Source of the DNA: Trypanosoma brucei
Lineage: Eukaryota
Assembly (NCBI GenBank): GCA_000002445.1
Contig: CH464491.1
Location: forward strand, 4,992,001 to 5,056,000
Reading direction: 5' to 3'
Length of the DNA: 64,000 nucleotides
Positions 32,301 to 38,300 of the stretch are shown piece after piece (position 1 is the stretch's first letter; every line of letters begins with the position of its first letter). The position numbers are program-made.

Positions 32301-35300
32301 TGCAAGGTTATATGAAACCATCACCTACTTGGTTTGTCATTGCATGTACCTTGGAGAAGTTAAATCTGGTGAGAGACAAACCTTAAGACGAGATTCTGGT
32401 CTTTGTTAGCTTAGTTGTCAGTGTTAAATTGCTTGGTATCGATGACAGTATTTTAAGTACAAATAACGAATTCTTCAAATAGTTTTTGAGGGAATGTTGG
32501 TAGTTTCGGTTTTGGGTAACTTCAATTTATACTACTTTTATATGACAGTGCCTATATTTCCACTTTATACAACCGCATGTTGTAACAATTTATTAACTAC
32601 GTTAATTATCACATGTAAATTGTCACTTTATTTGGTTTTGTTTGTCTTATGTTCAACTTGTGTAAAGTTCAATCTTACCATATAAAACTATGGTCACCAT
32701 GACAATTTAAAGCCTAAATTATGCTTCTGACAATTTCTTACATTCAACATCAACCTATATCGTTTTATATCTATTCTATATATACTTTCCAACCGCGACT
32801 ACATCCCTGAAAATATTAAAAGTACTGCATGTTTTGATGCATATAAAACACTTAACACCTATGTGTTGCAGTGGCTTCTATTTTTTGTTAATTCTAAGGC
32901 TTTAGTTTACTTGTGAAAAAAGTAACGCCTTTGGATATTAAATGTACACTTTTTGGATTTTCTTTGTTAAATCTTCGTTCATCTTTGCTTGACATTGTTT
33001 TAATCATGAAAGTTGGATACTGGAACCGCCTTTATTGTTGCTTTTGTTTTATTATTTTTCTCCCTTAGTCGTGTACAAGCAACAACTTATATATTGATTA
33101 TTTTTTATTGAAAGGTCTTAATATTTTGCAAGCATCACAATAAGGAATTAGAGGTCCATCTACAATACTTTTTTAACTTTATAGAGATCTTCCGTGGTTT
33201 CATATGCGGACTTTATTATTCTGGCCACGTCGGTCTTTACTGAGTGTGCCGTTAGCTGCATCTCTTTTTTCTGACTTCGCATGAGCTGCAGTAGCTGCAG
33301 CTTTTTTCACCATTGCGCTGTGCCGGTTTATGATAACTGCCTCCATATTCTTTCCTACAAAAGCTCCTTCTGCATTTCTACGTTTCGTATTGCTTGAAAT
33401 CTGTCCTTCCTTTTCATTTAAATTTATAACTATATTCCTCTCCTGCCATGCTAATTCGTTCTCACTCCCTTATTCTTATTACACCATTCCATTGCTTAAC
33501 GTGCTTCTATTTTGAGCTTTTAATTGGTTCTAACCACCAAACTTATCATAAAAGTTTTCGATACACACTCACATCCCACTCTTATCATTATTATTAGCAT
33601 CACCATTACTATTGTTATCATCAGTCCGCTCATTATAATATTTGTATATACACACTCACAACACTCTTCTATTATTATTATTACTACTATATCCTTAAGA
33701 AATATGCATCAAATAAATAATATTAACCAAAATCAAAAATGATAAATAGCATTTATTTTCAAAACACTATTACCCCATAATTTGCACACATAAAACACTG
33801 TCACACACATATTGCCAAAAATTTACAAATTTCATCAAAAAGTGTTAAAATATATAAAATATTAGGAGTTTTATCCAAATATCAAATTAAATAAATTATC
33901 TTATAATCGTTATAGTGCTATAAAATTCATAAAGACAACATCTATGAAAGCCAATTTTTTATTAAAAAGGAAACTGCCATTTCGGCTCTTTTCTCTTTCT
34001 TAGTCATATTCACCCTATTTGCCTTTTTTCCAGCCGCAATTCTTTTTATCATCCTTTGTTTTCGTCCTCACAAGCTTGTTGATTAGTGCCACGTTGGGTA
34101 CCCTTTTCTTTTCTTCCCATATTTTCCTTCTCCTTTTCCTGCTTTGTCTGCTTTTTCTGTTTCCTTTTTGCCTTCCTCACTCAATGTGCACTTTTCACCA
34201 TCTTTGCCATCTTTGTTAAAAACACGCCCCTGGAAGTTTAGCGGCACTAGCTTTCGGATGCCAGCGGCAGATGAGGCAGTCGTTCCTTAACTACCAAATG
34301 TGATAATCTCCTGCTTTAAAATAACCCTATTTTTACATTATTTCCTTTTGAAAGCAAATTGTTTTGTGCAACGAAACTGCCACGCGCCAGCGCTTTTTAA
34401 AAAATTTTAAAGCCGTGCTCAGCGCAAAATTCAGAGCTGAAATTCACATAAACGAAAAAAATTTTCAAAATGTGATAGCGAGGTATAGACTAAGAATACA
34501 AAGACGAAGATTCTTGAAGTTTGAAGAAGGTTTAGGGTTTACGTAAAAAAGAGCCGCTGATTCATTAAAAAAGTGGCGAATTAAAAAAAATTAATTAAAA
34601 AATTAATAACCCTAACCCTAACACTTTTTAGCCTATTTTTCTTTCTTCCTTTTTTATTTCATTTTTAATAGAACTTTGAGAATCAATTACAAAATTCCCT
34701 AAAAGTTTTGATTCTTTTTAAAAATTTAAAAAAAAATAAAAAATAAAGAAGATCAAAAAAATAATCCAAAATTTGTGAAAACTCAATAATAAAAAACCTA
34801 ACCCTAAAAGTTCAAAACATTCAAAAATAAAAAAATGAGAAATTTTTTAGCTATCAGAAATTTTTTTTACAGAATCAGACAACCAAAAAAATTCTCGGTC
34901 GAATTTAGGTGTTAAAATATATCAGAAGTTTTCAAGTAGCAAAAATTTCTTTAAAAAATTGAGGGGGGGGGGTGAATTTGTTTTAAAAAAGCAAGGCCAC
35001 AAATGCGGCAGAAACCACGCTGAGGGCGAATTGCTTGTCTAGGAGAATAGAGGAATAACGGCATTTATAAGTTCCTTTATCAGATCCATCACTATTTTCT
35101 CCTTTCCAGCCACAGTGTTTTGTTCCACCCTGATTTGCTGCCTCGCACGCCGTCTGGTTTTGAAAGCTGCTGCACACAGGTTTGGAAGTATTATCCCCGC
35201 CTTTCTTTTCTTCTGTTTTTTCTTCTGAGTCTTTTTTCTTAGCTGGTTCGCCTTCTGCTATCTTAGCTTCCTTTTTCATGGAAGCAAGTTGCCTCGCCAA

Positions 35301-38300
35301 GGCCTCTGTTAGCTTCCCAATATCTGTTTCAGATTCGAGATGCAGACCTTCTGATGTTTTATCTTTGTTTATTTTAGGCTTAAGGTTGTTGATTTTTTTC
35401 CACAGTCGCTCCTCAAATTTGCTGCCGCCTTCACCATATGCCGCTTTTATGGAAGCATCGAGCAGACTTGGTGGCGTCGTCATCGTGTCTTCTGAGTTTT
35501 CCAGTCCTGGTAAGGATCTGACTAGTTGCCTTTTGAATAAGTCGCTTGTTGCTACGGCGTTGTAGTCGTTTGCTGTAGATGAGCAATGCTTCTGTTTGAA
35601 GTGATCTAGTAGTAGTTTGTTTGCGTCATTAGCATTGGTTATATTAGTTTTCAGGACGTCGCTGGCCACCGCATATTTTAGATCTGCATTGGCTCCATCG
35701 CCTGACCAGGCTGTTGCTTCGTTTGATTGTACCGCGCTGCCGATTTTGATTATCGAATTGAACGTGAGTTTGCCTGTGTCTTGGGTTATCCCTGTGCTTA
35801 CACAGTTAGTGTTGCCGCCGCCGTGCTTACAATTTATTGTTACTTCTGTTATTGGAGTCAGCTCGGGCAGTAACATGTTTTCGGATTCGTTCGTGGGGTC
35901 AAATTTTGTCCTTTCCTCGGTCAGCTGTACCTTTGCGCATTCGTCTGGCATGGCGGTGCCTGCTGTTTTTGTTGTTAGTGACGTCGCAGTGAACTGGCCT
36001 GCCCCCGTTCTCGCCGTTAACTCTGTTTTGCCTCCGGCCTGGCTGAGTTGTTCGATTAGTGTTATCGCTCGGGCCGCAGTTGTTAGTTTTGGCTCATGGT
36101 CGGCCAGTAATTTGCGGCCTGCCTGTGCCGCAGCTCGGCAGGTTTGAAATATTTCGCCTGTCGCAGCTAAAGCTGGTAACGATTTGCTCTTTAGATCATC
36201 GTCGCCGGCTGTGGCGGCAATCGTTAGTTTTAAAATCTGGTCTGTCATAAGCGCCAGATTAGCCTCTGCTCGTTCCTGTTCCTCTGTATAAAAAGCCAGG
36301 GCGTTGTGCAGCCGCATCGCGCACTCGCAGCCGCTGTCGCACTTCACCGCTTTTGACGCGCTTGTTTTGTAGGTTGTAATGCACAGTGCCGCTATCCAGC
36401 TTGCGGCAAGTGCGGCAGCCATCTATATTAAAGCTTCTTGTGGTGTTGAGGTTGATGTTCTTATTGGGTTGGTCACCTGTGCTGCTGGAGGGAACTTTTC
36501 TGTTAGAAGCTTTCTTTTTGGGTGCAGTGAGAAATACGCCTCGTTTTTTAAAGAACAGACATATAAATCCAATTGGCTTGTCAGTACTACTTTTGTGTTT
36601 GGTTACGATTTGCATATATTTTATATGGTATCTATCCCGTTATTTTTTTCTTTCTCATGTTGTCTATTTGCCGGCACTAATCCATTACATTTTGTGTAAA
36701 TAACATAGTAAATTTCTTTGTTTCCACGGACGTGATTCTTGTGCCGCTTCTGTGGTGTCTGCTTGGCGTCTGGTGCAATGTTTGGCAGTTGTCCAAAGCT
36801 TTTTAGTCTCATCTAGGTTTCGATCTGGTCCTATTTTGATTGCGCCTCTCGTTTTGTTTAATTTATCAGTGATATCTGCTGATACCTGCACGTCCTTGCC
36901 GCGTGTCTTGCCTTTTGTATCTTCTATTGTTTTTATGACATCTGCGTCTGTGTTGTTGGTGCTGTAGTCTCCTATTTACCTTTAGTGGCACTGTTTTAAT
37001 TTCTCTTGCATTTGTTCTGCTGTGAAAGCTCTGCTTTTGTTTCTCTGTTTTGTCTGGGATTCAAATTTGAGGAAAGTTTGACAAAACCGCTTGTATGCCA
37101 GAACAACCCGTGAGGAATTCATCTAAGAGTTGTCTAGTTTCTTTTTTCTCCTGTGGTTGAAATCCTAAAGCCAATTACTCGTTAGAATTTACCTTTAAAC
37201 CAGTTGCATCTTGGGAGAAGTTAAAATTTGTCAGCTTCAAGCAACTTCCCTTCCTTAAATGCATCACTACAAATACTATCATAATAAAAATCTAACTTCT
37301 CCCCGGATACAGCCTAAGTTTGCAGTTTTCCTAGATTATGATTTATCAATTCCTTACTTTTATATTTTTTATACCAAGTCAAGTTGGTCATAGTTTCTTT
37401 TTCCCTTTCCTGCCGAGAGAACGCGTTTCCTGCTAGATGAAGTAATTCAGCTTCTCCAATGGCGCCACTGACGTGTATGGAAAAGAATCGATCCTCGTAA
37501 TCCAATCCAATCATTCCTCTTGGCAAAAGAAGTCTTTTTCCTACATTAGTCTCTCTGTACACACTCAAAAGAAGTAACGGCTTGTAAATGCTCTGTTCCG
37601 ACCACCATTCATCGGTCATTTTAAGTATTTCATTAAACGCTCTTTCAAACTTTCTGAATGCCCAAAATCTAGCTATTATACCACCTCCATTCAAGTATGC
37701 TTTTTGGTTTGCAGGCCACTTAATTAAGTGCGTTAGGTTCAGCTGCTCTTCCACAAAGTAAGAGGCTTTGCAAAACCATGTGCACCCCGCCATATGGTCT
37801 CTGTATTCTGAGTTCAAAAGTAAATCTAACTGTGGTGCATAACATTCAGCTGGCGACATGAATATAATTGGAGAAACTTGTTTCTCTTTGACAACATCGT
37901 CCTCGCTAAACTTCTCTTCATTTTCTGCATAATTTTGCATAAAATATTCCACCGCATTCTCATATATATCACGATCAGTAACAATAACATCAGACCCATC
38001 AAACAGTGATTACAATATCCTCATCACTTGCATTATTATTTTCTAAAAATTCCATAACCCATATAGGCCTTTTAACATGGCTATACAAACATCCTATTGC
38101 AATTGTAATAATGTCAATATGAGCCTACGCCGTCCTTGAGTTTCTTGCGTTTGAACTACAAACGCAAAGACTTTGGGTTTCTTAGCCTCATTATTTGTTA
38201 TATGTGTTATATTATTTTATTCATCATTTTAAAGGAACACAGCGCTTATACATACTAAATGTTATATCAACAGGAATAGTAAAACTCTCAAGAGACCGAA

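What the first reader, a model, noticed from the sequence alone, without database searches (positions are those of the whole stretch)
34525..36422. Intact VSG (34983-36422) followed by telomere-like hexamer repeats in both orientations, a fossil of a telomeric or expression-site terminus
Within 60-460 bp downstream of this intact 479-aa VSG and its perfect 16-mer, the minus strand carries TTAGGGTTAGGG (plus strand CCCTAACCCTAA at 34605-34623), AACCCTAAACCC in the opposite orientation (plus 34527-34541) and a further CCTAACCCTAAAAG (34794-34812). The cassette is also preceded by a three-copy 70-bp repeat tract and a non-VSG gene. The order 70-bp repeats, VSG, 16-mer, then telomere repeats resembles the terminal part of an expression site or minichromosome end. 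Its position here, internal to an array and with repeats in inverted orientation, is compatible with a past telomere capture or fusion event or a telomere-healed break.
Basis: partly seen in the sequence, partly recalled or inferred. Interest (0 to 1): 0.6.

Follow-up and report, generated by a model that had tools for sequence, protein, structure and literature searches.

The report
Telomere-type flank behind an array VSG
The short telomere-like repeats behind this silent trypanosome coat-protein (VSG) gene are real and not chance, but they look like the 'TTAGGG-like repeat' zone already described just downstream of telomere-adjacent VSG genes, carried into a chromosome-internal gene array as a decaying relic, and do not mark an old chromosome end or telomere fusion.

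Summary
The features are present within a few bases of the stated coordinates. These are an intact 479-aa VSG (34983-36422, minus), a perfect 16-mer (34909-34924), a 70-bp repeat tract (39008-39319) and sense-oriented TTAGGG islands at 34795-34811 and 34605-34625. The islands far exceed chance and are conserved at the syntenic T. b. equiperdum locus, so they are not an assembly artefact.

The 'inverted' copy (34529-34541) is a TTTAGGG-type 13-mer. It lies inside a conserved non-telomeric block whose paralogs read GACACTAAC(G/C)CTTATTC. There is no head-to-head telomere structure.

The islands belong to a distinct 'class II' VSG 3' module: an ...ALLF C-terminus, a poly-C 3'UTR, a perfect 16-mer and a ~0.6-kb flank. 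It has three independent copies. A T. b. equiperdum paralog carries an 8-copy degenerate hexamer array at the same site, and a window paralog has lost it. All twelve other cassettes run straight into 70-bp repeats.

Published work describes the same kind of tract: TTAGGG-like repeats 3' of telomere-proximal VSGs, and a 106-bp T2AG3-like tract downstream of telomeric VSG221.

Best reading: a telomere-proximal-type 3' flank now inside an array, decaying. Homology to a real telomeric flank could not be tested here. Interest is modest.

The parts
39008..39319 (-). 70-bp repeat tract at the 5' boundary of the cassette
   Evidence: TRF gives period 72, 2.7 copies, at 39075-39269. Self-BLAST extends it to 39008-39319, and 14 similar tracts occur elsewhere in the window.
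37224..38306 (-).
   Evidence: phmmer best hit is 56% identical to expression-site ESAG3. Names come from cluster members. tblastn aligns ESAG3 residues 1-368. The frame has at least 6 in-frame stops.
34983..36422 (-). Intact VSG gene of 479 aa, ending ...FALSVVSAAFVALLF
   Evidence: Open ORF. Pfam VSG C-terminal domain. VSG homologs at 78-86% identity. T. b. equiperdum ortholog P0002.
34909..34982 (-). Class II VSG 3'UTR with a poly-C motif (CACCCCCCCCCCTCAA) and a perfect 16-mer at 34909-34924
   Evidence: The poly-C type is shared only with the cassettes at 23047 and L001 12373, and with the VSG221 3'UTR primer sequence quoted in PMC1807955.
34795..34811 (-). TTAGGG-like island 1 (sense strand TTTTAGGGTTAGGTTTT), 171-187 nt past the stop codon
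   Evidence: Conserved at L001 11448.
34605..34625 (-). TTAGGG-like island 2 (sense strand GTGTTAGGGTTAGGGTTATTA, 2.7 perfect units), 357-377 nt past the stop codon
   Evidence: Conserved at L001 11636-11649.
34626..34794 (-). AT-rich filler between the two islands, containing one lone TTAGGG at 34697-34702
   Evidence: GC content is 0.20-0.23. Only low-complexity inverted repeats were found. A paralog has an 8-copy degenerate hexamer array in this interval.
34300..34600 (-). Conserved non-coding block of the class II flank, including the antisense TTTAGGG-type 13-mer at 34529-34541
   Evidence: BLAST and MAFFT show homology to 22690-22919, to L001 12700-12790 and to L002 1731-2171.
33912..34290 (-). 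Degenerate VSG fragment covering only the C-terminal domain
   Evidence: tblastn matches to VSG C-terminal domains. The sequence was read and encodes a GPI-signal-like tail, NGSFLFNKKLAF.
33842..33857 (-). Second 16-mer (1 mismatch), belonging to the C-terminal fragment and followed by a canonical class I spacer
33542..33690 (-). 70-bp repeats of the next cassette, 152 bp after the second 16-mer

Best explanation
The hexamers are what remains of the 'TTAGGG-like repeat' zone. That zone is a normal part of the DNA just downstream of telomere-adjacent VSG genes.

Shown:
- This VSG carries a distinct 'class II' 3' module. It consists of an ...ALLF C-terminal domain, a short poly-C 3'UTR, a perfect 16-mer, and a flank of about 0.6 kb.
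- In that flank a telomere-repeat tract sits between two conserved anchors, GATAGCTAAAAAATTTCTC and AATTCGCCACTTTTTTAATG.
- Downstream, the module abuts a degenerate VSG fragment that covers only the C-terminal domain. This fragment has its own 16-mer and the ordinary spacer and 70-bp repeats.
- Paralogous copies hold different decay states of the tract.

Inferred:
- A VSG 3' end that once lay next to a telomere (an expression site, a minichromosome, or a chromosome end without an expression site) was copied into an array together with its proximal flank.
- It was joined upstream of a truncated resident VSG. The composite then spread by segmental duplication and is decaying.
- It has no demonstrated function where it now lies.
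For: 1. The repeats are non-random. They occur at 3 sites in 64 kb against 0.1 expected.
2. They are conserved at the syntenic T. b. equiperdum locus. The flank is 95.9% identical excluding gaps.
3. There are two clear-cut classes of 3' end. All 4 poly-C 3'UTRs (3 independent) are followed by the long flank. All 12 others are followed by TTTTTGATGAAA... and then 70-bp repeats after 140-183 bp.
4. The tract is positionally homologous among class II copies. The flank here has two clean islands. L001 12554-12601 has 8 degenerate hexamers (TRF consensus GGCTTA). The flank at 22880-23135 has lost the tract but keeps the 3' edge AGGTTTTAATTTTC.
5. The G-rich strand is on the VSG-sense strand, and the tract starts 171 nt after the stop codon.
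6. The literature agrees:
   - Telomeric VSG221 has a 106-bp T2AG3-like tract at nt 211-322 of AJ271641. It is internal to the telomere and is used as a de novo telomere seed (PMC1807955; PMC3610638).
   - The distance from VSG to telomere is 200-1590 nt in 17 expression-site clones (PMC2567434).
   - The start of the VSG221 3'UTR is of the poly-C type.
7. Class I spacers show no telomere-like enrichment: summed score 94 against a null of 95.8.
Against: - No authentic telomeric VSG flank could be fetched, so sequence homology of the class II anchors to a real chromosome end is untested. 'Telomeric type' rests on architecture plus published descriptions.
- The numbering origin of AJ271641 relative to the VSG221 stop codon is assumed, not verified.
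- The conserved block and the C-terminal fragment downstream of the tract recur together in four paralogs. This could mean that class II is simply a second array-flank type with no telomeric history.
- The sample is small: about 16 cassettes in 105 kb from three subspecies.
- The clean state of 2.7 perfect units next to a degenerate paralog is not explained by simple decay.
Confidence: 0.6

Rival explanations
1. The site is the fossil of an actual chromosome terminus. A true telomere tract once began here (an expression-site or minichromosome end, or a telomere-healed break). It became internal through telomere capture, break-induced replication or end fusion, which left only a few repeats at the junction.
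For: - The repeats are real, sense-oriented and at the right distance from the VSG.
- The shortest published VSG-to-telomere distance (200 nt) matches the tract position.
- Telomeres can be seeded at such tracts.
- The flank is followed by an abrupt change to a truncated VSG fragment.
Against: - Conserved, non-telomeric class II sequence continues for about 300 nt beyond the repeats. It is shared with paralogs, one of which lacks the tract. The repeats are therefore embedded in the flank and not at a junction.
- The supposed inverted arm belongs to that conserved block.
- In published telomeric flanks the TTAGGG-like tract is itself internal.
- In the syntenic T. b. equiperdum record, and in the T. 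b. gambiense record that holds a paralogous copy, the VSG-sense strand and therefore the G-rich strand point towards the chromosome interior.
Confidence: 0.15
2. The islands are kept by selection as a working cis-element. One option is a latent seed for telomerase, so that a break downstream can be healed to create a new telomere-adjacent, intact, 70-bp-flanked VSG. Another is a binding site for duplex TTAGGG proteins (TRF, RAP1, VEX-associated) that influences silencing or recombination.
For: - A T2AG3-like tract at the equivalent place behind VSG221 seeds de novo telomeres in about 10% of cells after telomere loss (confirmed).
- The two islands are unchanged between the window strain and T. 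b. equiperdum, while the surrounding flank differs by about 4%.
- The VSG itself is intact.
Against: - There are only 1.8 and 2.7 units.
- One paralog lost the tract and another let it degenerate. This argues against general constraint.
- With the orientation seen in the T. b. equiperdum and T. b. gambiense records, healing here would retain the distal, centromere-less piece.
- No binding or healing data exist for array sites.
Confidence: 0.1
3. The islands are short interstitial telomeric sequences added in situ by telomerase during repair of double-strand breaks in this AT-rich flank. They would have no link to any telomeric past of the cassette.
For: - The islands are short and clean, as this mechanism would produce (my background knowledge from other eukaryotes; not tested here).
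- The paralogous flank at 22880-23135 lacks them.
- A third, unrelated 16-nt perfect tract exists at 25308-25323 in unique sequence. Isolated short tracts therefore do arise in this array.
Against: - A paralog (L001 12515-12625) carries a longer, older, degenerate hexamer array between the same anchors. A shared ancestral tract is more parsimonious than repeated insertion at one spot.
- Both islands have the same orientation.
- They flank the interval that the paralog's array occupies.
Confidence: 0.08
4. The matches are chance hits in AT-rich sequence or an assembly artefact.
For: The flank is AT-rich, with GC 0.20-0.33. Single TTAGGG/CCCTAA hexamers are common, with 14 in the window.
Against: - 0 of 100 whole-window shuffles and 0 of 3000 local simulations reached the observed counts.
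- The same islands occur in an independent assembly of another subspecies.
Confidence: 0.01

Closest known systems
'TTAGGG-like repeats' 3' of telomere-proximal VSG genes (Aline & Stuart 1989, Exp Parasitol 68:57, as cited in PMC3708902)
   Same: The repeats lie a few hundred bp downstream of a VSG, on the VSG-sense strand, as degenerate or short T2AG3 units inside otherwise non-telomeric flank. Hall et al. used them as a marker of telomere-proximal VSGs.
   Different: No telomere follows here. The flank runs into a VSG C-terminal fragment, a 16-mer and 70-bp repeats, at least 29 kb from either window end. The 1989 paper could not be read and its sequences could not be aligned.
T2AG3-like tract downstream of VSG221 in bloodstream expression site 1 (AJ271641 nt 211-322; Glover et al. 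2007, PMC1807955)
   Same: The distance from the VSG is similar: the tract starts 171 nt past the stop codon here and about 183 nt in the T. b. equiperdum paralog, against nt 211 there. It is internal to other flank sequence. The T. b. equiperdum paralog has 8 degenerate hexamers against 10.5 in VSG221. Both have a poly-C type 3'UTR.
   Different: The window copy is reduced to 1.8 and 2.7 units separated by about 170 nt of AT-rich DNA. The telomere-seeding function shown for VSG221 is untested here, and the apparent orientation would not rescue the centromeric part of the chromosome.
Canonical silent-array VSG cassette (70-bp repeats, VSG, 3'UTR 16-mer, next 70-bp repeats)
   Same: It has a 70-bp repeat tract upstream, an ESAG3-related pseudogene as in two other cassettes of the window, and an array context on both sides.
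   Different: In 12 of 12 canonical cassettes the 16-mer is followed within 140-183 bp by 70-bp repeats. Here, and at 23047, a flank of 0.4-0.6 kb plus a second VSG 3' end intervenes.
Interstitial telomeric sequences from head-to-head telomere fusion (for example the human 2q13 type)
   Same: Telomere-type repeats lie at an internal site, with a motif in each orientation within 300 bp.
   Different: There are no abutting inverted arrays. The antisense motif is a TTTAGGG-type 13-mer, 64 nt from island 2, within a block whose paralogs are non-telomeric.

Membership tests
Telomere-proximal VSG 3' flank with TTAGGG-like repeats | A TTAGGG-like tract within a few hundred bp 3' of a VSG, with the G-rich strand on the VSG-sense strand | tested here: met
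   Islands lie 171-187 and 357-377 nt past the stop codon, both in sense orientation.
Telomere-proximal VSG 3' flank with TTAGGG-like repeats | The flank ends distally in a genuine (TTAGGG)n telomere tract | tested here: not met
   The flank is followed by a VSG C-terminal fragment, a 16-mer (33842) and 70-bp repeats (33542-33690). No tract of 18 nt or more exists anywhere in the window.
Telomere-proximal VSG 3' flank with TTAGGG-like repeats | Sequence homology of the non-repeat flank to authenticated telomeric VSG flanks (AJ271641, expression-site clones, minichromosome ends) | not testable with these tools
   VSG221 and its homologs are not on any contig in the collection. The last protein search returned nothing. 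Only array loci L001 and L002 could be fetched.
Bloodstream expression site terminus | ESAGs lie upstream of the 70-bp repeats, and only the VSG lies between the 70-bp repeats and the telomere | tested here: not met
   Another VSG cassette lies upstream of the 70-bp tract (16-mer at 39502). An ESAG3-related pseudogene lies between the 70-bp repeats and the VSG. [quoted passage not shown]
Head-to-head telomere fusion relic | Abutting (TTAGGG)n and (CCCTAA)n arrays in inverted orientation | tested here: not met
   There is a single antisense TTTAGGG-type 13-mer, 64 nt from island 2, inside a conserved block with non-telomeric paralogs.
Short interstitial telomeric insertion at a repaired break | Presence or absence against an otherwise collinear 'empty' orthologous or paralogous site, with no older tract at that site | tested here: inconclusive
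   One paralog is empty (22880-23135). Another has a longer degenerate array between the same anchors. The ortholog has the same islands.
Silent-array VSG cassette | 70-bp repeats upstream, a VSG with a 16-mer 3'UTR, and neighbouring cassettes on the same strand | tested here: met
   The syntenic T. b. equiperdum locus lies 55-76 kb inside a 2.37-Mb record.

The most novel reading that the evidence does not exclude
The class II module would record traffic from telomere back to archive. The module is the expressed-type C-terminal domain, poly-C 3'UTR, perfect 16-mer and TTAGGG-like flank, fused to a truncated resident VSG 3' end. On this reading, a VSG whose 3' end was assembled at a telomeric or expression site was copied back into a silent array together with its telomere-proximal flank. 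The composite then spread: four paralogs are seen across T. b. brucei-type, T. b. equiperdum and T. b. gambiense sequence. TTAGGG-like tracts behind array VSGs would then be countable footprints of how the silent archive is renewed from telomeres. They would also show that the tract is not a safe marker of telomere-proximal donors.
Probability: 0.25. Interest if true: 0.55.

Novelty: new member of a known kind. Interest (0 to 1): 0.3.

Why it matters
TTAGGG-like repeats behind a VSG have been used as a diagnostic of telomere-proximal donor genes (PMC3708902). This locus shows the same signature behind an intact VSG deep inside an array, in at least two subspecies, so the diagnostic is not exclusive.

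If the class II flank proves homologous to real telomeric flanks, such loci are datable footprints of VSG movement between telomeres and arrays. That movement bears on how the silent archive evolves. Otherwise this is ordinary subtelomeric decay with no demonstrated function.

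Tried and rejected
1. All cassettes end in a vestigial telomere-like stretch. I saw TTAGGGTTA at L002 2641, and AGTAGGTTACC and ATTATGGGGTAAT in window spacers. I tested 12 class I spacers for best 12-mer matches. The summed sense score was 94 against a shuffle null of 95.8 (sd 2.5), with antisense 84. 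Rejected.
2. Fetching an authentic telomeric flank.
   - I recalled the VSG221 sequence; it matched the database entry at 100%, but it is on no contig.
   - The target VSG, its Lister 427 homolog and a neighbouring window VSG are not on record.
3. Papers not held: Marcello & Barry 2007 and Cross et al. 2014. Searches for interstitial telomeric repeats in T. brucei arrays found nothing specific.
4. Homology between the 25308 tract's surroundings and the flank studied here. Only the repeat itself and a 14-mer match. Unrelated.
5. A known RNA or a meaningful hairpin in 33400-35100. Rfam gave only a sub-threshold Histone3 hit at E=0.88, and the inverted repeats are A/T low complexity.
6. The conserved block 34300-34600 as degraded VSG coding sequence. 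tblastn finds VSG similarity only from about 34083 downwards, and from about 22621 in the paralog. The block is non-coding.

Full report
CONTEXT. The window is a Trypanosoma brucei-type silent VSG array. All large ORFs and all eleven matches to the VSG 3'UTR 16-mer lie on the minus strand. Fifteen 70-bp-repeat tracts punctuate it. The target ORF 34983-36422 (minus, 479 aa) is open. It carries the Pfam VSG C-terminal domain (E=1.5e-13). Its best database relatives are named T. brucei VSGs at 78-86% identity.

CHECKING THE OBSERVATION. The perfect 16-mer is at 34909-34924. The 70-bp tract is at 39008-39319; TRF gives period 72 and 2.7 copies.

The telomere-type matches are real but need small coordinate corrections:
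- TAACCCTAACCCTAAC at 34607-34622 on the plus strand, which is 2.7 TTAGGG units on the VSG-sense strand.
- CCTAACCCTAA at 34797-34807, 1.8 units in the same orientation.

Exact 11-mers of the telomere repeat occur at only three places in 64 kb. These are the two above and 25308-25323. That is 13 positions against 0.10 expected from Markov simulations, and none arose in 3000 simulations of the flank itself. The tool's own dinucleotide shuffles gave 0.13 expected against 3 observed. Chance is excluded.

The 'opposite orientation' element is GGTTTAGGGTTTA (34529-34541, plus strand). It is a heptamer-type repeat with only one canonical hexamer. It is statistically unusual (0.03 expected per window), but its context changes its meaning, as shown below.

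NOT AN ARTEFACT, AND OLD. The closest homolog with genomic context lies on a 2.37-Mb T. b. equiperdum record (locus L001). Window 46047-34161 is syntenic with L001 660-12096. Both islands and the antisense motif are present there at L001 11448, 11636-11649 and about 11718. The 3' flank is 95.9% identical excluding gaps. Synteny ends at about 34134.

TWO CLASSES OF VSG 3' END. I lined up everything around each 16-mer in the window, in L001 and in a T. b. gambiense locus (L002). This shows two sharply different classes.
- Class I has 12 cassettes. It has an AT-rich 3'UTR and an often imperfect 16-mer. This is followed by TTTTTGATGAAA... and, 140-183 bp later, by the 70-bp repeats of the next cassette.
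- Class II comprises the target, its T. b. equiperdum ortholog, the cassette at 23047 and L001 12373, so three independent copies. It has a C-terminus ...FALSxVSAAFxALLF, a short 3'UTR with a poly-C motif (AAAAGAATTTTCCCCCCCTCAA) and a perfect 16-mer. This is followed by a long flank with no 70-bp repeats.

THE CLASS II FLANK.
- The flanks are homologous to one another from the stop codon onward.
- Each runs through a conserved non-coding block: ...TTAATG.A.GCAGCGGC...AC.CTAAC.CTTATTC...GCTGGCGCGTGGCAGTTTCGTTGC...GATTTGCTTTCAAAAGGAAA.
- Each then passes into a VSG fragment that covers only the C-terminal domain. This fragment has its own class I 16-mer, spacer and 70-bp repeats.
- L002 holds a fourth copy of the block plus fragment. 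Its upstream part is lost in an assembly gap.

WHERE THE REPEATS SIT. In class II flanks the telomere-like material lies between two conserved anchors, GATAGCTAAAAAATTTCTC on the VSG side and AATTCGCCACTTTTTTAATG on the far side. The copies differ in this interval:
- The target has two clean islands at the two edges of the interval, with about 170 nt of AT-rich filler between them. The filler holds one lone TTAGGG.
- The T. b. equiperdum paralog has about 100 nt of degenerate hexamers...TTAGGGAGGGTTA...TTAGGCTTAGGATTAGCATTATGCCTAGGCTTA...GGGTTAGGGTTTTAATTTTC. TRF.0 copies of period 6 with consensus GGCTTA at L001 12554-12601.
- The window paralog at 22880-23135 has lost the tract and keeps only the distal edge, AGGTTTTAATTTTC.

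The simplest history is one ancestral tract of about 100 nt or more at this position, decaying differently in each copy.

THE ANTISENSE MOTIF. It lies inside the conserved block. The other three copies read GACACTAACGCTTATTC, GACACTAACCCTTATTC and CAACCTTAACCCTTATTC at that place. It is a variant of a block sequence and not an inverted telomere arm.

COMPARISON WITH PUBLISHED WORK.
- Hall et al. [quoted passage not shown]
- Glover et al. 2007 describe the only T2AG3-like tract of the VSG221 expression site. It lies downstream of VSG221 and internal to the telomere, at AJ271641 nt 211-322: 46 bp of T1-2AG1-6 plus 10.5 degenerate T2AG(G/A)(G/A/C) units. It seeds de novo telomeres in about 10% of cells after telomere removal (PMC1807955). 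This was confirmed in PMC3610638.
- Their sequencing primer shows that the VSG221 3'UTR starts TTTCCCCCCTCAAATTTCCCC, which is the poly-C type.
- In 17 expression-site clones the VSG-to-telomere distance is 200-1590 nt (PMC2567434).
- Here the tract starts 171 nt past the stop codon, and about 183 nt past it in the T. b. equiperdum paralog.

The architecture matches the known telomere-proximal flank. In that known flank the TTAGGG-like tract is not the terminus.

WHAT DOES NOT POINT TO AN EXPRESSION SITE.
- Upstream 70-bp repeats are universal in this array.
- The 'non-VSG gene' is an ESAG3-related pseudogene at 37224-38306. It is ~51% identical to expression-site ESAG3 over 368 aa and has at least 6 in-frame stops.
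- Two more ESAG3-related pseudogenes sit upstream of other VSGs, at 12828-13743 and 61076-62062.
- In expression sites, ESAGs are always on the far side of the 70-bp repeats.

ORIENTATION. L001 and L002 are both reverse-complemented relative to their megabase records, and both lie 50-75 kb from the high-coordinate end. The VSG-sense strand, and so the G-rich strand of the islands, points to the chromosome interior. This is an inference that depends on scaffold orientation. It argues against an in-situ healed end and against a useful seed function.

INTERPRETATION. The most likely reading (about 0.6) is a telomere-proximal-type VSG 3' module, relocated into an array upstream of a truncated resident VSG, then duplicated, and now decaying.

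The steps that are shown:
- The repeats are non-random.
- They are conserved in T. b. equiperdum.
- The two classes of 3' end exist.
- The tract is positionally homologous among paralogs.
- The cassette has two successive VSG 3' ends.

The steps that are inferred:
- The flank has a telomeric origin.
- The module moved from a telomere into the array.

The key untested step is sequence homology to a real telomeric flank. No telomeric T. brucei contig could be retrieved.

The rivals are a true former terminus (0.15), a selected seed or binding element (0.1), in-situ telomerase insertion (0.08) and chance or artefact (0.01).

VERDICT. The kind of feature is already known for telomeric VSGs. Its presence behind an intact array VSG, as part of a recurrent composite, is a modest extension of that knowledge.

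Noticed in passing
window 25308-25323: A perfect 16-nt GGTTAGGGTTAGGGTT on the plus strand, antisense to all VSGs. It lies about 610 nt upstream of a VSG pseudogene start (about 24700) and about 890 nt from the 70-bp repeat at 26207-26258. The surrounding 24050-26200 has no paralog in the window, L001 or L002. If the T. b. equiperdum scaffold orientation applies, its G-rich strand points outward, which is the orientation of a true end. Origin unexplained.
   Followed up: partly
window 22150-23135: A second 'double 3' end'. The VSG pseudogene 23129-24049 has a class II 3'UTR and a perfect 16-mer (23047-23062). This is followed by a ~0.4-kb class II flank without the telomere-like tract, a C-terminal-domain fragment, a second 16-mer (22186-22201) and then 70-bp repeats.
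   Followed up: yes
L001 12126-13476 (T. b. equiperdum CM010675.1): Where synteny with the window ends, T. b. equiperdum has a further class II unit stacked directly after the first one. It consists of an intact-looking C-terminal fragment, a perfect 16-mer, an 8-copy degenerate hexamer array and the conserved block. It then continues into a C-terminal fragment that is 91% identical to that of window VSG 29594-30973. The window has a different 4.4 kb here.
   Followed up: partly
window 34983-36422 compared with P0005 and P0002: The target VSG looks mosaic. EATRO1125 VSG 1125.4312 is identical over aa 13-230 and then unrelated. The T. b. equiperdum ortholog is 99% identical in the 3' half of the coding sequence but only 69-87% in the 5' half. 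This suggests segmental conversion within the N-terminal domain.
   Followed up: partly
window 12828-13743 and 61076-62062: Two further frameshifted ESAG3-related pseudogenes, 64-78% identical to expression-site ESAG3 in pieces, each upstream of a VSG.
   Followed up: partly
window 16181-16280: A 100-N assembly gap inside or next to a VSG coding region.
   Followed up: no
window 52657-56310: The cassette with a perfect 16-mer at 56295-56310 has no recognisable 70-bp repeat for about 3.6 kb downstream, unlike the other class I cassettes. No telomere-like sequence is present there.
   Followed up: no
L002 2641-2649 (T. b. gambiense FN554968.1): A TTAGGGTTA 9-mer about 130 nt after a class I 16-mer-like site, just before a 70-bp repeat. 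It is probably chance, since class I spacers as a group show no enrichment.
   Followed up: partly
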